Assembly (NCBI GenBank): GCA_964016885.1 | Contig: OZ024752.1 | Location: 40,424,001 to 40,488,000, forward strand | Origin: Eledone cirrhosa | Taxonomy: Eukaryota | Direction: 5' to 3' | Length of the DNA: 64,000 bases | In this document: positions 1-64,000 of the stretch, in pieces | Position numbering within the stretch: position 1 is the first letter of the stretch | How the letters are laid out: each line of letters opens with the position of its first letter | Program-made: the position numbers and the translations under genes | The notes under the pieces: generated by a model | Database searches by the model: none | What the model was told of the DNA's origin: nothing | The model's input: the letters and a program-made list of their open reading frames with translations, nothing else

Positions 1-320
1 TCATCATCATCATCATCATTTTACGTCCGCTTCTCCCTGCTTGCAAGGGTGGGACGGGAACTGATTCTGGCTTGATTTCTACAGCTGGATGCCCTTCCTA
101 ACACCAACCTCATTTACAGTGAGTGCTGGGTGCTTTTTTGCCGTGGCACCTACACGACCACTTTGCAGTCCCTATCATCTCATTTCTACAGCTGAGTAAA
201 CTGGAGCAATGTGAAATAAAGTGTCTTGCTCAAGGAAACAACACATCACCCGGTCTGAGAATTGAACTCACAACCTTTCGATTGCAAGCCCAATGCTCTA
301 ACCACTAAGCCATGTGCCTC
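1..320 (-). mobile_element. tRNA-headed SINE, family B (CORE-like body, RTE-type 3' tail with (GAT)n)
   Basis: Reverse complement reads GGCACATGGCTTAGTGGTTAG (A box), GAGTTCAATTC (B box), CCTTGAGCAAGACACTT (CORE-like), then GGACGTAAAATGATGATG. Near-identical copies occur elsewhere in the window. Confidence 0.85.
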
Positions 321-773: not shown

Positions 774-1458
774 TCATCATCATCATCATCATCAGGATTA
801 GCATCCGTGTTCCACGCTTGCATGGGTTTGGACGGGGGTTTTCCCACTTGAGGCAAGAGTGGTTGTCTTGCTCGCATAGGACTGTCTGGCGGGTTTTCTA
901 CAGCTGGATGCCCTTCCTAACACCAACCACATTTACAGTGTGGGGCTGGGAGGTTTTTACCGTGTTGCCTACACGGCCACATTACAGCGTGGACTGTCTG
1001 GCGGGTTTTCTACAGCTGGATGCTCTTCCTAACACCAACCACATTTACAGTGTGGGGCTGGGAGGTTTTTACCGTGTTGCCTACACGGCCACATTACAGC
1101 GTGGACTGTCTGGCGGGTTTTCTACAGCTGGATGCCCTTCCTAACACCAACCACATTTACAGTGTGGGGCTGGGAGGTTTTTACCGTGTTGCCTACACGG
1201 CCACATTACAGCGTGGACTGTCTGGCGGGTTTTCTACAGCTGGATGCCCTTCCTAACACCAACCACATTTACAGTGTGGGGCTGGAAGGTTTTTACCGTG
1301 TTGCCTACACGGCCACATTACAGCGTGGACTGTCTGGCAGGTTTTCTACAGCTGGATACCCTTCCTAACACCAACCACATTTACAGTGTGGGGCTGGGAG
1401 GTTTTTACCGTGTTGCCTACACGGCCACATTTACAGCGTGGACTGTGTGTTTTTTTGT
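774..1458 (-). mobile_element. RTE-tailed non-autonomous element, family C, with internal 112-bp tandem array (~5 units)
   Basis: (CAT)n end at 774-793. The 112-bp period matches ORF starts at 1020, 1132 and 1244. Relatives at 24656, 25811, 34233 and 57400. Confidence 0.8.
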
Positions 1459-3287: not shown

Positions 3288-3338
3288 AGATTCCTGATGA
3301 TTTCTAAAGAATGAAACAGTTCTAGTCCTGTAGAATCT
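3288..3338 (+). ncRNA. Type I hammerhead ribozyme, family 2
   Basis: Stem I agattc/gaatct; CTGATGA 3294-3300; short stem II ttct/agaa closed by U-U; GAAA 3313-3316; stem III cag/ctg; predicted GUA cleavage after 3332. Confidence 0.78.
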
Positions 3339-3533
3339 CATCTATATTAAAAAAATTTGTATACTCTGCTATGTATTGAGTACCTTACTTACTGTGGTTA
3401 CCGCCGATTCAACGCGGAATAACTTACCTATATATATATATATGTATATAAATTTCTTCTTCTGACCCCTGACCAATTCTTCCTGCCTAGTTATTCCTGT
3501 TTTTCCTGGTACCATATATATATATATATATAT

Positions 3534-4039: not shown

Positions 4040-5075
4040 TTGTACAGGACTAGAGAGAGACTAGCCAAGTACATGGATGTTATCTAACCATCTTGCTTGG
4101 GGTCTACCCCTGGGTCTCCTGCCGGTTAGTTTTGCCCATAAAATCTGTCTGACGATTCTTTCCTGAGACATTCTAACCACATGTCTATAGTATCGGAGCT
4201 GTGATCTCTCAATTCGGAGAAGTAGCAGCTCTACCTGGAGTGACTCTCTGATTTCAGAGCTACAGATCTGTCCAGCGATTCCTTCCTGAGACATTCTAAC
4301 CACAAGTCTATAGTATCGGAGCTGTGATCTCTCAATTCAGAGAAGTAGCAGCTCTACCTGGAGTGACTCTCTGATCTCCGAGCTACAAATCTGTCCAGCG
4401 ATTCTTTCCTGAGACATTCTAACCACATGTCTATAGTATCGGAGCTGTGATCTCTCAATTCAGAGAAGTAGCAGCTCTACCTGGAGTGACTCTCTGATTT
4501 CAGAGCTACAAATCTGTCCAGCGATTCTTTCCTAAGACATTCTAACCACATGTCCATAGTATCGGAACTGTAATCTCTCAATTCGGAGAAGTAGCAGCTC
4601 TACCTGGAGTGACTCTCTGATTTCAGAGCTACAGATCTGTCCAGTAATTCTTTCCTGAGACATTCTAACCGCATGTCTATAGTATCGGAGCTGTAATCTC
4701 TCAATTCGGAGAAGTAGCAGCTCTACCTGGAGTGACTCTCTGATTTCAGAGCTACAAATCTGTCCAGCGATTCTTTCCTGAGACATTCTAACCACATGTC
4801 TATAGTATCAGAGCTGTAATCTCTCAATTCGGAGAAGTAGCAGCTCTACCTGGAGTGACTCTCTGATTTCAGAGCTACAGATCTGTCCAGCGATTCTTTC
4901 CTGAGACATTCTAACCACATGTCTATAGTATCGGAGCTGTGATCTCTCAATTCGGAGAAGTAGCAGCTCTACCTGGAGTGACCCTCTGATCTCTAAGCTA
5001 CGCACTTTATCGAGTAATGTTATTCCAAACACCTTTCTGAGGAACCCCATTTCGGTCACTTTTATTCGGGATTGT
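4040..5075 (-). mobile_element. RTE-clade LINE 3' ORF fragment with in-frame 123-bp tandem amplification (~7 units)
   Basis: Translation TEMGFLRKVFGITLLDKVRS...IERSQLRYYRHVVRM...GRRPRGRPQARWLDNI is a typical RTE C-terminus. ctctcaattc recurs every 123 bp. Confidence 0.85.
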
Positions 5076-20009: not shown

Positions 20010-20249
20010 TAAGTCATATATCATTAATGGAGTCTGTTTGAGATGCAAGCCCAACAATTTTGGCCAGAGGGGGGAAAGCCAATTAACCTTTTAGCATTTA
20101 AACCAGCTGAATCTGGCCAGAGTTCTTCAAGCAGGGAACAGCGGATGTAAAATGATGATGATGATATATATATATATAATGAAAAGGACCTCTATACATT
20201 AATTGATATAAAACACAATTCTCATTATACAATTAACTATAACTAATTA

Positions 20250-20835
20250 ATAGTTTCTACTTTTGGCACAAGGCCAGCAATTACCCAGTGTATTACTGGT
20301 ACTTTATTTTATCGACCCCGCAAGGATGAAAGGCAAAGTTAACCTCGGCGGGATTTGAACTCAGAATGGCAAGGGCCGTAACTCTATGCGTCAAAGCATG
20401 GCGTCCGACCCTCTACCGATACTGCCAATCCACCTCTCATTAATTTAATTGTTTCTACTTCAGGCACAAGGCCAGCAATTACCCAGTACATTACTGGTAC
20501 TTTATTTTATCGACCCCGCAAGGATGAAAGGCAAAGTTAACCTCGGCGGGATTTGAACTCAGAATGGCAAGGGCCGTAACTCTATGCGTCAAAGCATGGC
20601 GTCCGAGCCTCTACCGATACTGCCAATCCACCTCTCATTAATTTAATTGTTTCTACTTCAGGCACAAGGCCAGCAATTACCCAGTACATTACTGGTACTT
20701 TATTTTATTGACCCCGCAAGGATGAAAGGCAAAGTTAACCTCGGCGGGATTTGAACTCAGAATGGCAAGGGCCGTAACTCTATGCGCCAAAGCATGGCGT
20801 CCGAGCCTCTACCGATACTGCCAATCCACCGCCCT
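20250..20835 (-). mobile_element. Tandem trimer of SINE family A (~199-bp period)
   Basis: Three head-to-tail copies joined by ccacctctcattaatttaattgtttc. Confidence 0.9.
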
Positions 20836-21899: not shown

Positions 21900-22475
21900 T
21901 TTGGCAGTATCGGTAGAGAGTCGGTCACCATGCTTTCTAGCATAGTTACGTCCCTTTACAGTCTGAGTTCAAATCCCGCCGAGGTTAACTTTGCCTTTCA
22001 TCCTTACGGGGTCGATAAAATAAAGTACCAGTAATGTACTGGGTGATTGCTGGCCTTGTGCCTAAAGTAGAAACAATTAAATTAATGAGAGGTGGATTGG
22101 CAGTATCGGTAGAGGGTCGAACGCCATACTTTGGCGCATAGAGTTACGGCCCTTGCCATTCTGAGTTCAAATCCCGCCGAGGTTAACTTTGCCTTTCATC
22201 CTTACGGGGTCGATAAAATAAAGTACCAGTAATGTACTGGGTAATTGCTGGCCTTGTGCCTAAAGTAGAAACAATTAAATTAATGAGAGGTGGATTGGCA
22301 GTATCGGTAGAGGGTCGGACGCCATACTTTGGCGCATAGAGTTACGGCCCTTGCCATTCTGAGTTCAAATCCCGCCGAGGTTAACTTTGCCTTTCATCCT
22401 TACGGGGTCGATAAAATAAAGTACCAGTAATGTACTGGGTAATTGCTGGCCTTGTGCCTAAAGTAGAAACAATTA
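21900..22475 (+). mobile_element. Tandem trimer of SINE family A
   Basis: Three copies joined by gaaacaattaaattaatgagaggtgg. Confidence 0.9.
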
Positions 22476-23654
22476 AATTGTGAGGTAAATCTACATTCCC
22501 ATTTCTCAGATAGGATGAGGGTCTGTTACTATCCCTAGAGCAGCATTTTTCAACCTTTTTTTTTTTTTTTTTTTTTTTATCTTTGTGGAACCCTTGGAAT
22601 AGTTTTTATGTCTTAGGGAACCCCTGCATAAAAATTATTCTATACCATTATTGATATCTATTTGATATTTTTATATTTTCTGGGCTCTATCTTATGAGTC
22701 ACTGTAAATAATAGTTTGGATAAGTCCATGGCGGGATCCAAATCTGATTGGTGTATATTTACCTTGAAATCTTATTTGTAACTTGCAGGTGGTATTTCTA
22801 CATAGGACCCCCTAACTCCTATTATGAAGTAACACATTACACTATAGCCTGTTCTATTTTAGTTAGTTTGTTATTTCCACTTACATAACATGCTTTTATT
22901 TTTTAACAATTAATTGTCCCCCCCCCCCCCCCCCCCGCGCCTCATTTTTTATCAGTTCCTGTTTACAATAAAAAGAGTTGGGGGGTATTCGTCAAATGTG
23001 TATGTGGATATTATTTTTACTGAATTCCATTACATTTAGGACTTACGGGTTTTTTTTTTTTATTGAAATTCTTTTACATTTAATCACTCCCAAAGTTCCT
23101 CTTTGCGCTATAGAATTTCTTCTTAGTAATGAAAAAAAACCCACAAAACTATATTTTATCCTATGGTGATGGTTAGTAACAGAAGAGAAAAGAGAAATAT
23201 ATATATATATATAAGGGTAAGTAAGTGATTTGATGGCTTGGAAGAAAATTGTAAACAAGAAAGAAAGACACAGTGTGTCAAGTGAGAAATCATTTGGTTC
23301 TGTCATGAGTGCAAAAAAGAATATAAATAGTAATATAAAAATAATTAGTTTTTCTGGGTTAAAATTTTGTAGAAAAATGAAACCCACTTGTTTGGACAAA
23401 ACAAGGAAGCTTTATTTAAAGTGAAAGACAGACAGACGAAAATTTGTGAGAAAGAGATATTATTAGGAAGAAATAATGAGATCAAGGCAAAAAAAAAAAA
23501 AAGTTTCAAAGTAAGCATGTTCTCTTCCTGTTAAACTACAAACAATTCTAATCTTTTAACATTCACATTACTCTATATATACTATTATATTTTCATGGTA
23601 AAGGTTTTACCTTACATAATTATCTCACATAACATTTACATGACTCTATATATA

Positions 23655-24655: not shown

Positions 24656-25460
24656 TCATCATCATCATCATCATCGTTTAATGTCCATTTTCCACGCTTG
24701 CATGGGTCTGGACAGGAATTGTCCCACTTGAGGCAAGAGTGGTTGTCTTGCTCGTATAGGACTGTCTGGCGGGTTTTCTACGGCTGGATGCCCTTCCTAA
24801 CACCAACCACGTTTACAGTGTGGACTGGGAGGTTTTTACCGTGTTACCTACACGGCCACATTACAGCGTGGACTGTGTTTTTTTTGTCGTGACACCTACA
24901 CGTCTGGCGGGTTTTCTACGGCTGCGTGCCCTTCCCAACACCAACCACGTTTACAGTGTGGACTGGGAGGTTTTTACCGTGTTACCTACACGGCCACATT
25001 ACAGCGTGGACTGTGTTTTTTTTGTCGTGACACCTACACGTCTGGCGGGTTTTCTACAGCTGCGTGCCCTTCCCAACACCAACCACGTTTACAGTGTGGA
25101 CTGGGAGGTTTTTACCGTGTTACCTACACGGCCACATTACAGCGTGGACTGTGTTTTTTTTGTCGTGACACCTACACGTCTGGCGGGTTTTCTACGGCTG
25201 CGTGCCCTTCCCAACACCAACCACATTTACAGTGTGGACTGGGAGGTTTTTACCGTGTTACCTACGCGGCCACATTAGAGCGTGGACTGTGTTTTTTTGT
25301 GGTGACACCTACACGTCTGGCGGGTTTTCTACGGCTGCGTGCCCTTCCCAACACCAACCACATTTACAGTGTGGACTGGGAGGTTTTTACTGTGGTACCT
25401 ACACGACCACATTACAGCGTGGACTGTGTGTTTTTTTTTGTCGTGACACCTACACGACCT
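24656..25460 (-). mobile_element. Family C element with 138-bp tandem array
   Basis: (CAT)n end; cgtctggcggg at 24901, 25039 and 25177. Confidence 0.8.
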
Positions 25461-33256: not shown

Positions 33257-33932
33257 TATATATATATTTCCATTTCAACTGTCACCTCATTTTAGTGTAG
33301 TCAAATCAAGATGGGCCTCTTCTATGTAAAGTGACTAACTAGCATGACTCACTCTCTCTTACAACAAACAATAAAAACCAGGTCACTTCTTTCATATCTG
33401 GTATTGAACTAAATTAAAATTAAATTCTGTAGTTCAAGAAAGTTACCTTTGCATGTGTATATTCTCAATCAGTAAATGATAATATCTTGTTTTTCTTTTA
33501 CTTCCAACATTCACCAATGAAATATGTATATCGTGTATGTATATATATATATATATATCCTCTTGGCTATATAAATTTTAACTATATACCCTACTTTACT
33601 ATATATGCCCCTGGATATATAAACTTAACTATATATCCCGCTGGCTATATAAACTTAACTATGTCTTTGTATACTATTTCTTATTGAAAGACTGTGTCTA
33701 TGATTTTCAAATAATAAAAAAAATTATTATTCAAGAATAATGATTTCTTTCATACTGGGGCACCACCGCCCTTTATATATATCTCTATATATATATATGC
33801 AGAGGTTATATTTAATTTGTTGGGATTCAACAAGCTTAAACATTTTTATAACTTATATAAAGCACTCAACCGTTTAGTGGAGTAAATACACAATATATTA
33901 ATAAATGGAAACTATATTTATAAAACCATATT

Positions 33933-33998
33933 TATTTTATTATATATATTTCAAGGGCAACCAAGGCAAATTATGGTGCGCTTTCATCAGATAAAATA
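33933..33998 (-). ncRNA. Type I hammerhead ribozyme, family 1b
   Basis: Reverse complement: tattttat CTGATGA aag...ctt GAAA tatata TA ataaaata. Confidence 0.8.
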
Positions 33999-34109
33999 CA
34001 GATTTGTTTTATAAATAAATATTGACATACCCGGAAAAAAAGACAGCCCCAACCGTTAAGGTTGTCTTTTTTTCCAGGTATGTCAATATTTATTTATAAA
34101 ACAAATCTG

Positions 34110-34175
34110 TATTTTATCTGATGAAAGCGCACCATAATTTGCCTTGGTTACCCTTGAAATATGTATAATAAAATA
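34110..34175 (+). ncRNA. Type I hammerhead ribozyme, family 1b
   Basis: tattttat CTGATGA (34118-34124) aag...ctt GAAA (34156-34159) tatgta TA ataaaata; predicted AUA cleavage after 34167. Confidence 0.78.
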
Positions 34176-34232
34176 AATATGGTTTTATAAATATAGTTTC
34201 CATTTATTAATATATTAATATATTGTATATAT

Positions 34233-45865: not shown

Positions 45866-45910
45866 TTCCTGATGATTTCCTTCAAATGAAACAGTTCTAG
45901 TCCTGTAGAA
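45866..45910 (+). ncRNA. Hammerhead ribozyme, family 2, with stem I truncated to 3 bp
   Basis: ttc CTGATGA tttccttcaaat GAAA cag ttctagtc ctg TA gaa; downstream flank matches the 3340-3425 family. Confidence 0.65.
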
Positions 45911-45991
45911 GCCATTTCTATATTAAATCTTGAATACACTCTATGTATTGGGTACCTTACTTACTGGTTATCCCCGATTGAACCCTGGACC

Positions 45992-49051: not shown

Positions 49052-49093
<42 letters not shown>

Positions 49094-49141
49094 TATATAC
49101 AGTATTAAATAAATGGAAAACTATATTTATAAAACCATATC

Positions 49142-49207
49142 TATTTCATTATATATATTTCGGGGATATCATATTAACAATATGCTATGCCTTCATCAGA
49201 CAAAATA
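49142..49207 (-). ncRNA. Type I hammerhead ribozyme, family 1
   Basis: Reverse complement: tattttgt CTGATGA agg...ccc GAAA tatata TA atgaaata, with an A-C mismatch at the base of stem II. Confidence 0.72.
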
Positions 49208-49315
49208 CAATATAAACAGTTTTATAGATAAATATATTCGACATACCGTAATAAACATCAACTTCATTTGAAGAGGTTTACTCTAGCAGTGTATTATATT
49301 ATATATATTATATTG

Positions 49316-49381
49316 TATTTTGTCTGATGAAGGCATAGCATATTGTTAATATGATATCCCCGAAATATATATAATGAAATA
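49316..49381 (+). ncRNA. Type I hammerhead ribozyme, family 1 (inverted twin of 49142-49207)
   Basis: tattttgt CTGATGA (49324-49330) ... GAAA (49362-49365) tatata TA atgaaata. Confidence 0.72.
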
Positions 49382-49627
49382 GATATGGTTTTATAAATAT
49401 AGTTTTCCATTTATTTAATATTGTAAATATACTCCAAATATTTGTCGAGTGCTTTTATATCAGTTATAAATATTTACTAGTTGTAACCCAACAATTTTAA
49501 ATATAACTTTACATACATATATATATATATATTTATGTGTGTGTGTGTATATGTATATTATATATATATATATATATGTGTGTGTATATTATATGTATAT
49601 TATATATGTGTGTGTGTATATGTATAT

Positions 49628-49658
<31 letters not shown>

Positions 49659-49800
49659 ATATTGTATGTATATTATATATATATATGTATATTATATATT
49701 ATATATATAATTGTTTCTATGTTAGGCACAAGGCCAGCAATTACCCAGTGTATTACTGGTACTTTATTTTATCGACCCTGTAAGGATGAAAGGCAAAGTC

Positions 49801-49872
49801 ACAGGACTAGAGCTGTTTCATTTGGGAGAAATCATTGATGATTTCTCCCAAATGAAACAGTTCTAGTCCTGT
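49801..49872. repeat. Palindrome of two family 2 hammerhead 3' halves fused at the core
   Basis: acaggactagagctgtttcatttgggagaaatca-t-tgatgatttctcccaaatgaaacagttctagtcctgt. Confidence 0.85.
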
Positions 49873-50020
49873 AGAAGCCATTTCTATATTAAATATTTAC
49901 ACTCTGTTTTGTATTGAGTACCTTACTTACTGTGGTTACCCCCAATTGAACCCAGGATAAATATATATATATATATATACAATATTAAATAAATGGAAAC
50001 TATATTTATAAAACCATATT

Positions 50021-50086
50021 TATTTCATTATATATATTTCAGGGATAACATATTAACAATATGCTATGCCTTCCTCAGACAAAATA
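50021..50086 (-). ncRNA. Type I hammerhead ribozyme, family 1
   Basis: Reverse complement: tattttgt CTGAGGA agg...cct GAAA tatata TA atgaaata. Confidence 0.78.
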
Positions 50087-50369
50087 CAATATAGTTAATA
50101 TGTTATCCCTGAAATATATATAATGAAATACAATATTGTTAATATGATATCCCCGAAATATATATAATTAAATAAATATGGTTTTATAAATATAGTTTCC
50201 ATTTATTTAATATTGTAAATATACTCCAAATATTTGTCGAGTGCTTTTATATCAGTTATAAATATTTACTAGTTGTAACACAACAATTTAAATATAACTT
50301 TCCATATATATTTCGTTTCTGAATTTGTTTAGCAAGATTCTTTATCTGAAATCGTGTGTTGAAACCGAT

Positions 50370-50812
50370 ATTGTTATACTTTGGGAGGGTCATGTTGCCA
50401 ATAAGAAACACACACACCAGTTGCTTTCACTTCAATTTAATTTATTATATATTTATAAATTTACAAATTTATAAATTTCTGGTTGGTTGGTTGGTTCCAC
50501 AACCAGATAGTTGTTTATATATATATATAGTCATAGTTCTTTCGTCACACACTCTGTGACCTCTTCAGTGACTGGGGATTTCTTTCTTCGTTTCTGTGCC
50601 TTTCCTTTCTTCTATCCTACGCCATTTTGTTTGTGTGTGACGAAAGAACTATGACTATATATATATAAACAACTATCTGGTTGTGGAACCAACCAACCAA
50701 CCAGAAATTTATAAATTTGTAAATTTATAAATATATAATAAATTAAATTGAAGTGAAAGCAACTGGTGTGTGTGTTTCTTATTGGCAACATGACCCTCCC
50801 AAAGTATAACAA
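50370..50812. repeat. Inverted repeat, ~180-bp arms (50370-50551 / 50634-50812)
   Basis: ttgttatactttgggagggtcatg...ctttcgtcacaca versus tgtgtgacgaaag...catgaccctcccaaagtataacaa. Confidence 0.9.
50529..50573 (-). ncRNA. Minimal type I hammerhead ribozyme, family 4
   Basis: Reverse complement: agtca CTGAAGA g gtcaca-gagtg-tgtgac GAAA gaac TA tgact; predicted CUA cleavage; very short stem III. Confidence 0.7.
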
Positions 50813-50815
50813 TTT

Positions 50816-50879
<64 letters not shown>

Positions 50880-50977
50880 GCAATGAGAGAAAGGGACAAA
50901 GTACCACCCTGGTAAAGCACATAAAAACTACTGATGGAGGGGACTATTTTGAGTTTCTAACTCTACCTTTTAATTTG

Positions 50978-51008
<31 letters not shown>

Positions 51009-51312
51009 AGGCCGAGTGATGCAACTTCGTGCTATTAGTGGCCTTTAGACTCACCTGATTAATGAAACGATTGTTAATACTAGAAATAAAACCCTTTTTG
51101 TACAGCCGACCATGTTATTCTTCAATCTTTCACTATTATTACTCCAAGAATAACGTCCATAGGAATTCTCACGAACTCGCTATCTAACTATGGAAACCTC
51201 TTGTTGAGTCAAACAATGCTGTACCCTAAAACTATCCCTAGTACAGAGTACTCACAACCTCTAACTGGATTACCTAAAACGATAACTTGTTATCCCATAT
51301 ATATATATATAT

Positions 51313-51437
51313 ATAGGAACGAGTAGGACCCCGACGGCTGAGCTCAAGCCGTTTCGACGGCTAATTCTGGTCTAAATTAGTCAGAATTAGTCCAGAAACG
51401 GCTTGAGCTCAGCCGTCGGGGTCCTACTCGTTCCTAT
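51313..51437. repeat. Palindrome of two hammerhead-like 3' halves (family 5) lacking CUGANGA
   Basis: GAAA cggc ttgagctca gccg TC ggggtc is present on both strands; arms ataggaacgagtaggaccccg and cggggtcctactcgttcctat. Confidence 0.75.
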
Positions 51438-51513
51438 TACCCACTCTACTACCCTAAGTATTGAGTACTCTGGTGCGTTATGGTCCACCTGGTTCCTTAC
51501 CACATTTCCTTCG

Positions 51514-51556
<43 letters not shown>

Positions 51557-51625
51557 TATCCAGGGTTCAATTGGGGGTAACCACAGTAAGTAAGGTACTC
51601 AATGCAAAGCAGAGTGTAAATATTT

Positions 51626-51733
51626 AATATAGAAATGGCTTCTACAGGACTAGAACTGTTTCATTTGGGAGAAATCATCAATGATTTCTCCCAAATGAAA
51701 CAGCTCTAGTCCTGTAGAAGCCATTTCTATATT
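51626..51733. repeat. Palindrome of family 2 hammerhead halves (reverse complement of the 49801 copy)
   Basis: The junction atcatcaatgat is the exact reverse complement of atcattgatgat at about 49831. Confidence 0.85.
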
Positions 51734-51769
51734 ATATTATATTATATATATATATAATATACATATATC

Positions 51770-52036
51770 ATTCATTTCATTTCATTTCATTTTACGTCCG
51801 CTTTTCCCTGCTTGCAAGGGTGGGACGGGAACTGATTCTGGCTTGATTTCTACAGCTGGATGCCCTTCCTAACACCAACCTCATTTACAGTGAGTGGTGG
51901 GTGCTTTTTTGCCGTGGCACCTCCACGACCACTTTGCAGTGGAATGACAGGGACCTCAGTCCCTATCATCTCATTTCTACAGCTGAGTAAACTGGAGCAA
52001 TGTGAAATAAAGTGTCTTGCTGAAGGAAACAACACA
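51770..52036 (-). mobile_element. SINE family B, 5'-truncated, (TTTCA)n tail
   Basis: Family B body. Confidence 0.85.
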
Positions 52037-52046
52037 TATATATATA

Positions 52047-53170: not shown

Positions 53171-53216
<46 letters not shown>

Positions 53217-53220
<4 letters not shown>

Positions 53221-53345
53221 AACCAGTAAGACCCCGATGGCTGAGCTCAAGCCGTTTCGACGGCTAATTCTGAACGGCTAATTCAGTACAGAATTAGCCG
53301 TCGAAACAGCTTGAGCTCATCCGTCAGGGTCTTACTGGTTCCTAT
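53217..53345. repeat. Second family 5 palindrome of hammerhead-like halves
   Basis: taggaaccagtaagacccc ... gggtcttactggttccta; right flank matches 51455-51515. Confidence 0.75.
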
Positions 53346-53744
53346 TACCCACAAGTATTGAGTACTTTAGTGCGTTATGGTCCACCTGGTTCCTTACCAC
53401 ATTTCCTTCGTTATATATATATATATATATATATATGCAAAAGTTCTATTTAAATTGTTGGGATACAACAAGCAAATATTTTTATAACTGATATAAAGCA
53501 CTCAACAAGTATTTGGAGTAAACATACGATATTAACAAATGGAAACTATATTTATAAAACCATATTTATTTCATTATAAATGGGACAACTCGCCTAACCC
53601 ATGCTAGCATGTTAAATGATGATGATGATGATGATGATGTGATAATTCCATTAACCCCAACCACTTTATTATATAGTTAGGTACAATGGTGAAGTACAGG
53701 CTCCTAGCCAATTTTTGAAAACTAGGATTTTTTTCAACACGCTG

Positions 53745-55508: not shown

Positions 55509-56205
55509 GCGGCACATGGCTTAGTGGTTAGAGCATTGGCCTTGCAATCGAAAGGTTGTGAGTTCAATTCTCAGACTGGGTGATGTGTTGTTTCCTTGAG
55601 CAAGACACTTTATTTCACATTGCTCCAGTTTACTCAGCTGTAGAAATGAGATGATAGGGACTGGCGTCCCTATCATTCCACTGCAAAGTGGTTGTGGGGG
55701 TGCCACGGCAAAAAAGCACCCAGCACTCATGTAAATGAGGTTGGCGTTAGGAAGGGCATCCAGCTGTAGAAATCAAGCCAGAATCAGTTCCCGTCCCACC
55801 CTTGCAAGCAGGGAAAAAGCGGACGTAAAATGAAATGATGATGATGATAAATGGAGTCACATGGCTTAGTGGTTAGAGCATTGGCCTTGCAATCGAAAGG
55901 TTATGAGTTCAATTCTCAGACCGGGTGATGTGTTGATTCCTTGAGCAAGACACTTTATTTCACATTGCTCCAGTTTACTCAGCTGTAGAAATGAGATGAT
56001 AGGGACTGGGGTCCATATCATTCCACTGCAAAGTGGTCGTGGAGGTGCCACAGCAAAAAAGCACCCAGCACTCACTGTAAATGAGGTTGGTGTTAGGAAG
56101 GGCATCCAGCTGTAGAAATCAAGCCAGAATCAGTTCCCGTCCCACCCTTGCAAGCAGGGAAAAAGCGGACGTAAAATGAAATGAAATGAAATGAAATGAA
56201 ATGAT
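55509..56205 (+). mobile_element. Two tandem full-length SINE family B copies
   Basis: Heads at about 55509 and 55854; tails (GAT)n and (GAAAT)n. Confidence 0.9.
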
Positions 56206-60987: not shown

Positions 60988-63900
60988 ACATTTTAGTGTG
61001 GACTGGGTGCTTTTTGTCGTTACACCTACAAGTCCATTTTAGTGTGGACTGGGTGCTTTTTGTCGTTACACCTACATGTCCATTTTAGTGTGGACTGGGT
61101 GCTTTTTGTCGTTACGCCTACATGTCCATTTTAGTGTGGACTGGGTGCTTTTTGTCGTTACGCCTACATGTCCATTTTAGTGTGGACTGGGTGCTTTTTT
61201 GTCGTTACACCTACATGTTCATTTTAGTGTGGACTGGGTGCTTTTTGTCGTTACACCTACATGTCCATTTTAGTGTGGACTGGGTGCTTTTTTGTCGTTA
61301 CACCTACATGTCCATTTTAGTGTGGACTGGGTGCTTTTTGTCGTTACGCCTACATGTTCATTTTAGTGTGGACTGGGTGCTTTTTTGTCGTTACACCTAC
61401 ATGTTCATTTTAGTGTGGACTGGGTGCTTTTTGTCGTTACACCTACATGTTCATTTTAGTGTGGACTGGGTGCTTTTTGTCGTTACACCTACATGTCCAT
61501 TTTAGTGTGGACTGGGTGCTTTTTGTCGTTACACCTACATGTCCATTTTAGTGTGGACTGGGTGCTTTTTGTCGTTACACCTACATGTCCATTTTAGTGT
61601 GGACTGGGTGCTTTTTGTCGTTACGCCTACATGTCCATTTTAGTGTGGACTGGGTGCTTTTTGTCGTTACGCCTACATGTCCATTTTAGTGTGGACTGGG
61701 TGCTTTTTGTCGTTACACCTACATGTCCATTTTAGTGTGGACTGGGTGCTTTTTGTCGTTACGCCTACATGTCCATTTTAGTGTGGACTGGGTGCTTTTT
61801 TGTCGTTACACCTACATGTTCATTTTAGTGTGGACTGGGTGCTTTTTGTCGTTACACCTACATGTTCATTTTAGTGTGGACTGGGTGCTTTTTTGTCGTT
61901 ACACCTACATGTCCATTTTAGTGTGGACTGGGTGCTTTTTGTCGTTACGCCTACATGTCCATTTTAGTGTGGACTGGGTGCTTTTTGTCGTTACGCCTAC
62001 ATGTCCATTTTAGTGTGGACTGGGTGCTTTTTTGTCGTTACACCTACATGTTCATTTTAGTGTGGACTGGGTGCTTTTTGTCGTTACACCTACATGTCCA
62101 TTTTAGTGTGGACTGGGTGCTTTTTTGTCGTTACACCTACATGTCCATTTTAGTGTGGACTGGGTGCTTTTTGTCGTTACGCCTACATGTTCATTTTAGT
62201 GTGGACTGGGTGCTTTTTGTCGTTACACCTACATGTTCATTTTAGTGTGGACTGGGTGCTTTTTGTCGTTACACCTACATGTTCATTTTAGTGTGGACTG
62301 GGTGCTTTTTGTCGTTACACCTACATGTCCATTTTAGTGTGGACTGGGTGCTTTTTGTCGTTACACCTACATGTCCATTTTAGTGTGGACTGGGTGCTTT
62401 TTGTCGTTACACCTACATGTCCATTTTAGTGTGGACTGGGTGCTTTTTGTCGTTACACCTACATGTCCATTTTAGTGTGGACTGGGTGCTTTTTGTCGTT
62501 ACACCTACATGTCCATTTTAGTGTGGACTGGGTGCTTTTTTGTCGTTACACCTACATGTCCATTTTAGTGTGGACTGGGTGCTTTTTTGTTGTGACACCT
62601 ACATGTCCATTTTAGTGTGGACTGGGTGCTTTTTTGTCGTTACGCCTACATGTCCATTTTAGTGTGGACTGGGTGCTTTTTGTCGTTACGCCTACATGTC
62701 CATTTTAGTGTGGACTGGGTGCTTTTTTGTCGTGACGCCTACATGTCCATTTTAGTGTGGACTGGGTGCTTTTTGCCGTTACACCTACATGTCCATTTTA
62801 GTGTGGACTGGGTGCTTTTTGCCGTTACACCTACATGTCCATTTTAGTGTGGACTGGGTGCTTTTTGTCGTTACACCTACATGTCCATTTTAGTGTGGAC
62901 TGGGTGCTTTTTGTTGTTACACCTACATGTCCATTTTAGTGTGGACTGGGTGCTTTTTTGTCGTTACACCTACATGTCCATTTTAGTGTGGACTGGGTGC
63001 TTTTTGTCGTTACGCCTACATGTTCATTTTAGTGTGGACTGGGTGCTTTTTTGTCGTTACACCTACATGTTCATTTTAGTGTGGACTGGGTGCTTTTTGT
63101 CGTTACACCTACATGTCCATTTTAGTGTGGACTGGGTGCTTTTTGTCGTTACACCTACATGTCCATTTTAGTGTGGACTGGGTGCTTTTTGTCGTTACAC
63201 CTACATGTCCATTTTAGTGTGGACTGGGTGCTTTTTGTCGTTACACCTACATGTCCATTTTAGTGTGGACTGGGTGCTTTTTGTCGTTACGCCTACATGT
63301 CCATTTTAGTGTGGACTGGGTGCTTTTTGTCGTTACTCCTACATGTCCATTTTAGTGTGGACTGGGTGCTTTTTGTCGTTACACCTACATGTCCATTTTA
63401 GTGTGGACTGGGTGCTTTTTGTCGTTACACCTACATGTCCATTTTAGTGTGGACTGGGTGCTTTTTTGTTGTGACACCTACATGTCCATTTTAGTGTGGA
63501 CTGGGTGCTTTTTGTCGTTACACCTACATGTCCATTTTAGTGTGGACTGGGTGCTTTTTTGTCGTTACACCTACATGTCCATTTTAGTGTGGACTGAGTG
63601 CTTTTTTGTCGTTACGCCTACATGTCCATTTTAGTGTGGACTGGGTGCTTTTTGTCGTTACGCCTACATGTCCATTTTAGTGTGGACTGGGTGCTTTTTT
63701 GTCGTTACACCTACATGTCCATTTTAGTGTGGACTGGGTGCTTTTTTGTCGTTACGCCTACATGTCCATTTTAGTGTGGACTGGGTGCTTTTTGTTGTTA
63801 CGCCTACATGTCCATTTTAGTGTGGACTGGGTGCTTTTTTGTCGTGACACCTACATGTCCATTTTAGTGTGGACTGGGTGCTTTTTGCCGTTACACCTAC

Positions 63901-64000
63901 ATGTCCATTTTAGTGTGGACTGGGTGCTTTTTGCCGTTACACCTACATGTCCATTTTAGTGTGGACTGGGTGCTTTTTGTCGTTACACCTACATGTTCAT
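60988..64000. repeat. 46/47-bp satellite (~65 units, runs off the window end)
   Basis: Unit ccattttagtgtggactgggtgctttttgtcgttacacctacatgt, starting directly from a (CAT)n-tailed element at 60855-60990. Confidence 0.95.

What the first reader, a model, noticed from the sequence alone, without database searches (positions are those of the whole stretch)
49100..51733. Nested cluster of palindromes built from four different hammerhead families
Seen within about 2.6 kb: twin family 1 ribozymes (49142-/49316+), a fused family 2 palindrome (49801), another family 1 inverted pair (about 49980-50215), a 180-bp inverted repeat with a family 4 ribozyme (50370-50812), a family 5 palindrome (51313) and a second family 2 palindrome (51626). 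Blocks are separated by (TA)n. Inference: a landing hotspot where each insertion preserves or regenerates TA targets. As RNA it would be a highly branched dsRNA with several self-cleavage sites.
Basis: partly seen in the sequence, partly recalled or inferred. Interest (0 to 1): 0.78.

Follow-up and report, generated by a model that had tools for sequence, protein, structure and literature searches.

The report
Retroelement stubs piled in TA repeats
This stretch is a row of eight short, mostly mirror-image stubs of a known kind of jumping gene (Penelope-like elements) sitting between TA repeats; such stubs lie all over this genome, each was likely made by copying one RNA into both ends of a cut, and their ribozymes are predicted to be folded shut.

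Summary
They lie side by side, not nested. Four hammerhead folds are intact (three family 1, one family 4); the family 2 and 5 copies here lack the catalytic 5' part. Two more insertions (X, Y) were missed. Families 1, 4, 5 and Y are the 3' repeats (pLTRs) of Penelope-like retroelements: longer copies elsewhere carry RT plus GIY-YIG coding sequence upstream. The layout (TA)n, inverted tail-less arm, variable junction, ribozyme arm with tail, (TA)n is the published PLE insertion form. Copies occur once per 8.6 kb, 81 of 92 beside (TA)n. The locus is the upper tail of that target preference, with a residual excess (P about 0.002-0.0003 given its TA tracts). The two family 2 copies are one local inverted duplicate. 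As RNA the arms would pair and are predicted to block cleavage. By-catch: both arms share one template, one arm has the tail, and 5' ends pile up at a likely promoter, in family 5 inside the ribozyme. Read support and expression are untested.

The parts
49062..49100 (.). (TA)n tract left of the first insertion
49101..49508 (+). F1a: head-to-head family 1 insertion; tail-less inverted arm 49101-49275, filler 49276-49308, arm 49309-49424 plus tail to 49508
   Evidence: arms 113 of 114 identical
49142..49207 (-). type I hammerhead fold, family 1 (2-bp palindromic stem III)
49316..49381 (+). type I hammerhead fold, family 1; predicted cut after 49373
49705..49800 (-). piece of an abundant SINE-like repeat, its head missing, joined directly to F2a
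   Evidence: over 20 matches in the window; SINE label is inferred from tRNA-like heads and recall
49801..49958 (+). F2a: family 2 palindrome plus tail; core broken at the junction; outer arm about 22-27 nt short
49981..50311 (+). F1b: family 1 head-to-head insertion with a 44-nt fold-back insert at the junction; arms differ at 5 of 87 bases
50021..50086 (-). type I hammerhead fold, family 1
50321..50812 (-). F4: pLTR of an RT-Cys linker-GIY-YIG element; tail 50321-50366, full arm to about 50640, inverted tail-less arm 50633-50812 ending in stem II
50529..50573 (-). minimal hammerhead fold, family 4, with an extra base before stem II
50877..50977 (.). X: two pieces of a further TA-flanked repeat family joined in opposite orientation; no hammerhead seen
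51007..51296 (+). Y: single 5'-truncated pLTR of a further PLE family, starting in loop II of its hammerhead-like motif
51313..51514 (+). F5: palindrome plus tail holding only the 3' half of a U3-A8-type hammerhead
51558..51737 (-). F2b: inverted local twin of F2a, same private junction and substitution

Best explanation
The cluster is a row of eight short insertions of six repeat families between (TA)n tracts, four of the families being the hammerhead-bearing 3' repeats (pLTRs) of Penelope-like retroelements, and each palindrome was likely made by the element's enzyme cutting a TA tract and copying one RNA into both cut ends. Steps. Shown: parent elements with RT and GIY-YIG coding sequence (families 1, 4, 5, Y); TA adjacency; two fixed 3' ends per family, 75-85 nt apart; one tail per palindrome; arms share sequence variants; junctions vary; 5' ends pile up at one site in families 2 and 5. 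Inferred: a promoter in the pLTR makes 150-350-nt RNAs; the (predicted dimeric) RT-endonuclease primes one target end from the tail end and the other from the inner start site; the two cDNAs meet head to head by microhomology or short filler; TA is left on both sides, expands and is hit again. The two family 2 copies are one insertion copied locally at DNA level (templated repair or conversion; inferred). The ribozymes are passengers, predicted to be locked in the hairpins. Odds: PLE origin plus TA targeting about 0.9; two-ended priming about 0.6.
For: ORF link: F4 (L032, L034, L037; L040 tail runs into the next ORF), F5 (L151: inverted arm, 394-aa ORF piece, UTR, pLTR), F1-type (L095, L259), Y (L254, L255); both test proteins fall at 0.96-0.97 among RT/HTH_animal/GIY-YIG clusters. 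One tail: F5 47 of 50, F2 33 of 34, F4 10 of 10, F1 6 of 11 pairs. Arm concordance: F5 40 of 42 (shuffled mean 13.9), F1 12 of 16 (1.4), F4 11 of 12 (6.4). Either arm can reach further 5': tail-less longer in 15 of 54 F2, 21 of 74 F5, 5 of 12 F4 pairs; tailed longer in 19, 13, 2. 5' pile-up in the unselected sample: 22 of 27 F2 arms within 15 nt, 28 of 39 F5 arms within 20 nt. 92 copies in 790 kb, 81 beside TA. Literature: PMC8557442 Fig. 2 legend (inverted 5'-truncated copy, tail at one end, microsatellite bias); PMC11167929 (both strands cut and extended, two RT starts define the tail, predicted dimer); PMC4209133 (opposite-strand hammerhead pairs 100-700 bp apart; U3-A8 core).
Against: No ORF link for family 2: 0 of 30 longer copies had one in 1.5 kb upstream; one copy (L251/L290) has GIY-YIG-like coding DNA upstream, but 0 of 14 relatives of that DNA lead to a family 2 core. 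X not linked and shows no hammerhead. Pfam gave no match at its cut-off for the F4 and F5 ORF pieces. Arm concordance could also come from fold-back copying or later arm-to-arm conversion; it was weak for F2 (19 of 20 against 13.0, shuffled maximum 19; second site 17 of 24 against 15.5). F1 tail asymmetry is only 6 of 11. Tails are 75-85 nt, published ones 30-40. The locus exceeds the TA-density expectation. No RNA or read evidence.
Confidence: 0.8

Rival explanations
1. Same PLE origin, but the inverted arm comes from one cDNA folding back and priming on itself, with the endonuclease trimming the second end at the tail boundary (self-priming idea of PMC3846280).
For: Explains shared variants between arms, junction overlaps of up to 5 nt as the commonest class in F2 (26 of 51) and second in F5, and the 44-nt fold-back insert in F1b.
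Against: A fold-back of a tail-primed cDNA cannot give a tail-less arm with more 5' sequence than the tailed arm, seen in 15 F2, 21 F5 and 5 F4 pairs. Joins of two different families exist (6 of 121 F5 arms, all six from a pattern that selects for them; 1 of 82 F2 arms).
Confidence: 0.25
2. The locus is a true hotspot beyond TA density (open germline chromatin, fragile hairpin DNA that attracts repair and more insertion), and local copying made F2a/F2b and perhaps the right arm of F1b.
For: 7 copies in 12 tracts, P 3e-4 to 2e-3; none of 237 bins of 2.7 kb had 6 or more. F2 junction only here, twice. F1b right arm matches F1a at 164 of 167 while its own arms differ at 5 of 87.
Against: Chosen after the fact; about 7% of bins have 9 or more tracts, so tens to a hundred or more such loci are expected in 3 Gb by chance (inference). 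Dispersion is only 1.27. Neighbours of picked copies average 0.69 per 3 kb.
Confidence: 0.35
3. A selected branched RNA with several working cleavage sites.
For: Four intact folds; a whole-locus RNA would be 76-79% paired with helices over 100 bp.
Against: Hairpins outcompete every hammerhead; cores face both strands; three units lack the core; metazoan PLE hammerheads are weak alone (PMC4209133) and protein-assisted (PMC11167929); the parts are ordinary family copies.
Confidence: 0.04
4. DNA transposons (MITEs) with TA target duplication.
For: Short, inverted ends, TA flanks, very high copy number.
Against: Variable centres, one-sided tails, 5'-truncation series leading to RT-GIY-YIG ORFs, conserved hammerheads.
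Confidence: 0.03
5. Assembly artefact, above all the family 2 twin.
For: Read support untested; listed runs hold at most 49% of the sampled words.
Against: The twins differ at 3 of 158 bases; each unit has the family-typical ends seen at many other loci.
Confidence: 0.05

Closest known systems
EN+ Penelope-like elements, Neptune/Nematis type (PMC8557442, passages and Fig. 2 legend; PMC3846280, passages)
   Same: RT followed by a Cys-rich linker and GIY-YIG; pLTR with hammerhead; inverted 5'-truncated copy next to it; tail at one end; partial tandem; microsatellite bias.
   Different: Tails 75-85 nt instead of 30-40; products mostly 150-500 bp with no coding DNA; about one copy per 8.6 kb for five families alone. 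Clade not fixed by a tree.
Minimal PLE hammerheads (PMC4209133, parts 1-2 of 4 read)
   Same: Type I, 1-2-bp palindromic stem III (F1, F4), extra base before stem II, U3-A8 core variant (F5), opposite-strand pairs 100-700 bp apart.
   Different: F2 and F5 have 3-5-bp stem III; F2 and Y close stem II with U-U; F5 and Y have a 40-60-nt loop II; 5-6 of 16 long F5 rows read C3-A8.
Anolis Poseidon element PAc in vitro (PMC11167929, main text read)
   Same: AT-rich target, both strands extended, two RT starts bounding the tail, uncleaved RNA as template.
   Different: That study did not show how inverted copies form and found no strand difference in start site; here nearly every palindrome has one long and one short end.
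Animal non-LTR retrozymes (10.64898/2026.07.22.740005, part 1 of 5 and passages)
   Same: Short non-coding PLE-derived units with type I hammerheads.
   Different: Retrozymes are head-to-tail tandems; these are head-to-head pairs whose ribozymes are predicted to be blocked.

Membership tests
EN+ Penelope-like element (PLE) | Parent copy with RT and C-terminal GIY-YIG ORF directly upstream of the repeat | tested here: met
   F4, F5, F1-type, Y; no ORF at this locus itself
EN+ Penelope-like element (PLE) | Same feature for family 2 | tested here: inconclusive
   X not examined for it
EN+ Penelope-like element (PLE) | Hammerhead in the pLTR | tested here: met
   51 folds in 790 kb against 0-4 in 5 shuffles; F2 stem I has 2 compensatory pairs in 10 distinct rows, related rows; F5; Y by eye; none seen in X
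EN+ Penelope-like element (PLE) | Inverted 5'-truncated copy beside the pLTR | tested here: met
   94 of 121 F5 arms, 71 of 82 F2 arms, each pair counted from both arms, sets partly chosen by similarity to the window; 36 of 92 copies in the unselected sample
EN+ Penelope-like element (PLE) | Optional tail at one end only | tested here: met
   length 75-85 nt, longer than published
EN+ Penelope-like element (PLE) | Partial tandem (tail is the start of the next unit) | tested here: met
   F4 only: L040
Neptune or Nematis clade | Cys-rich linker before GIY-YIG; placement in an RT tree | tested here: inconclusive
   Linkers seen in both ORFs, which are only distantly alike; no reference sequences, no tree; clade names from PMC8557442 and recall
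Non-LTR retrozyme | Head-to-tail tandem units each with a whole hammerhead | tested here: not met
Non-LTR retrozyme | Circular RNA made by self-cleavage | not testable with these tools
   no RNA holder listed
MITE | Symmetric terminal repeats around a fixed interior | tested here: not met

The most novel reading that the evidence does not exclude
This genome holds several hundred thousand natural products of a two-ended PLE insertion reaction: a short RNA from a promoter inside the pLTR (in family 5 inside loop II, so the transcript carries half a ribozyme and cannot cut its own 5' end) is copied by one dimeric enzyme into both ends of a cut TA tract, one end from each start site, and each event makes new TA targets. 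That would settle how PLE inverted repeats form and define a class of head-to-head, non-autonomous PLE miniatures.
Probability: 0.4. Interest if true: 0.6.

Novelty: new member of a known kind. Interest (0 to 1): 0.35.

Why it matters
The cluster itself matters little: it is a dense patch of a very common insertion. The family-wide pattern matters more. How PLEs make their inverted repeats is named as open in PMC8557442 and PMC11167929, and the counts here (one tail per pair, shared template, either arm longer, fixed 5' ends) can be scaled to the whole genome to decide between two-ended priming and fold-back. It also warns repeat annotators that many MITE-like palindromes beside (TA)n in such genomes may be retroelement stubs, and offers a source of TA expansion and of double-stranded RNA if read through.

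Tried and rejected
Rfam: no hammerhead match at gathering or E up to 10; only generic hairpin models. Family 1 DNA search of the genome returned nothing, not even the window (common words skipped), so family 1 numbers come from sampled regions. My first guess that family 5 has a CUGAnGA core: 23 heterogeneous hits only; the real core is U3-A8 or C3-A8. My guess that X was the original target DNA: rejected, it is a repeat. A family 1 5' pile-up at -80 was the end of my reference; 4 of 6 such copies continue. Nested model with the F2 pair as oldest outer shell: not supported, X and Y are at most 94% like their relatives and F1b arms are more diverged than the F2 twins. Search for a family 2 parent ORF failed. 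53 of 79 window ORFs scanned in Pfam: two weak matches, both under cut-off, none near the locus. Earlier findings of the scan: three look-ups, nothing. Paper searches showed no paper on one-tail, shared-template head-to-head miniatures or on a promoter inside a PLE hammerhead; the library lacks most subscription papers and I opened no supplements. PMC12602865 and PMC13282606 (passages) had nothing on this. I dropped blast hits over 62% TA/AT dinucleotides or under 50 bits before counting copies, and loci duplicating the window before pair counts.

Full report
Setting. The window is G000:C12:40424001-40488000 of a 3.0-Gb genome, rich in simple repeats. I think it is a cephalopod, from recall; this was not tested. 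No convincing host exon was found near the locus (53 of 79 ORFs scanned).

Observation. A type I hammerhead descriptor finds four folds in the locus, three of family 1 and one of family 4, 7 in the window against 0-2 in 20 shuffles. Rfam finds none. Family 2 is a hammerhead family elsewhere (755 exact matches to a stem I-core motif; two compensatory pairs in stem I among 10 distinct related rows), but both copies here are fused through the core. Family 5 is a hammerhead with a U3-A8 core in 9 of 16 long rows and C3-A8 in 5-6, and a long loop II (rows partly redundant); the copy here holds only the 3' half. X and Y are two more TA-flanked repeats (45 matches from 51 candidates, and 47 from 2729 candidates, 40 scored each). 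So the 2.6 kb is eight insertions of six families plus a SINE piece, side by side.

Identity. Longer family 4 copies run upstream into an ORF with RT, a Cys-rich linker and GIY-YIG-like residues, and in L040 the tail runs on into the next ORF. L151 is a whole family 5 insertion: TA, tail-less inverted arm, 394-aa ORF piece, 1.3-kb UTR, hammerhead, tail, TA. Family 1-type hammerheads follow decayed ORFs of that kind in L095 and L259, Y in L254 and L255. The two test proteins are nearest to RT/HTH_animal/GIY-YIG clusters; Pfam gave only weak RVT_1 or nothing. Family 2 has the same layout but no proven parent. The layout matches the PLE insertion forms in PMC8557442 (passages) and PMC3846280 (passages); PMC4209133 (parts 1-2 of 4) already reports opposite-strand hammerhead pairs 100-700 bp apart as truncated PLEs.

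Clustering. In 79 evenly spaced 10-kb regions (80 asked, one did not exist) five families give 92 copies, one per 8.6 kb, about 350,000 if extrapolated (small chromosomes over-sampled). 81 of 92 lie within 30 bp of (TA)4+, control 14%. Mean copies per 2.7 kb rise from 0.03 with no TA tract to 0.7-0.8 with six or more; dispersion 1.27. One of 237 bins has 5, none 6 or more; 2 of 79 regions reach 4-5. The locus has 7 (X not counted) with 12 tracts: P 3e-4, or 2e-3 with family 2 counted once. It is an upper-tail case; tens to a hundred or more like it are expected genome-wide (inference). All hammerhead families together give 51 folds in 790 kb against 0-4 in shuffles.

Mechanism. Each family has two fixed 3' ends, about +65/+140 (F2), +100/+185 (F5), +205/+285 (F4) from the core. 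Palindromes carry one of each: 47 of 50, 33 of 34, 10 of 10; family 1 only 6 of 11. Arms share variants far above shuffles for F5 and F1, less clearly for F4 and F2. Junctions vary from short overlaps to short fillers, and either arm may be longer. PMC11167929 (main text) shows a PLE protein extending both strands of an AT-rich target from two start sites that bound the tail. I infer one complex priming both ends from one RNA or sibling RNAs. Fold-back is the main rival; it does not fit longer tail-less arms or two-family joins (six of the seven came from a pattern that selects for them).

Why so short. 5' ends pile up: 22 of 27 F2 arms and 28 of 39 F5 arms in the unselected set; 24 of 30 pattern-picked F2 copies stop at the first base of stem I, 19 with a G before it that may be cap-derived but is often ambiguous (the pattern excludes copies cut further in). 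A TATA-like box lies 25-30 nt before an initiator-like motif at these sites in long copies (the expression required the motifs, names recalled). A pLTR promoter is known in Penelope (PMC2377424, passages). For family 5 the inferred start lies in loop II.

Local feature. The family 2 junction occurs twice in the genome, both here, inverted; the copies match at 155 of 158 and share a private change. Since junctions differ between events, these are one insertion copied at DNA level. F2a lacks its outer end and abuts a headless SINE piece, which fits templated repair with deletion better than conversion (inference, about 60:30, artefact the rest).

RNA. A read-through RNA would be 76-79% paired, but each hammerhead follows its own complement and is predicted shut (27-102 kcal/mol). 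Alone, F1b and F4 fold (P 0.74, 0.88), F1a does not (0.008). Expression and read support are untested.

Verdict. New member of a known kind; interest 0.35. The family-wide counts are the part worth following; my eight paper searches did not show them in print, and supplements were not seen.

Noticed in passing
L064:1400-1560, L073:1400-1580, L063, L068, L071, L081, L011: Two different hammerhead families joined in one insertion (family 4 or a further family with family 5; family 4 with family 2); in L064 and L073 the join falls in stem II and gives a hybrid hammerhead.
   Followed up: partly
L151:9355-9460; L254; L133: Family 5 hammerhead with U3-A8 core and 40-nt loop II that holds a TATA-like and an initiator-like motif at the site where most short copies begin.
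   Followed up: partly
tails of families 1, 2, 5 and Y (window 49430-49460, 49900-49925, 51445-51470, 51240-51260): All carry a similar ACTC...GAGT inverted motif in the tail, a possible shared RT or endonuclease signal; seen by eye.
   Followed up: no
window 33791-34223, 588-772, 3288-3430, 45870-45989, 53216-53581: Further family 1, 2 and 5 copies in the window; 3288-3338 is an intact family 2 hammerhead fold; at 53.2-53.6 kb families 5 and 1 again flank one TA tract.
   Followed up: partly
L087-L223 sample, e.g. L090:9421-9862, L103:7696-7738, L188:7733-7792, L190:7950-8119, L093:9214-9292: At least five more hammerhead families, several also as opposite-strand pairs; about one fold per 16 kb.
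   Followed up: no
L180/L181 (G000:C1:126118273 and 126118518): A family 2 palindrome duplicated in direct tandem, 245 bp apart, with the same junction.
   Followed up: no
window 255-312 and 55515-55578; 51782-52037: tRNA-like heads (Rfam tRNA just over cut-off) of an abundant SINE-like repeat.
   Followed up: no
window 879-1446, 20247-20830, 21901-22479, 24764-25456, 60989-64000: Many tandem arrays of 46-198 bp built from pieces of dispersed repeats, one of 65 copies running off the window end.
   Followed up: no
window 4064-4336 (-): 27-residue match to ribosomal L5/L18 family (E 5.5e-5, under cut-off); possibly a pseudogene scrap or lone exon.
   Followed up: no
L256:1327-2661: A 1.3-kb family 1 head-to-head palindrome, the same layout at larger size.
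   Followed up: no
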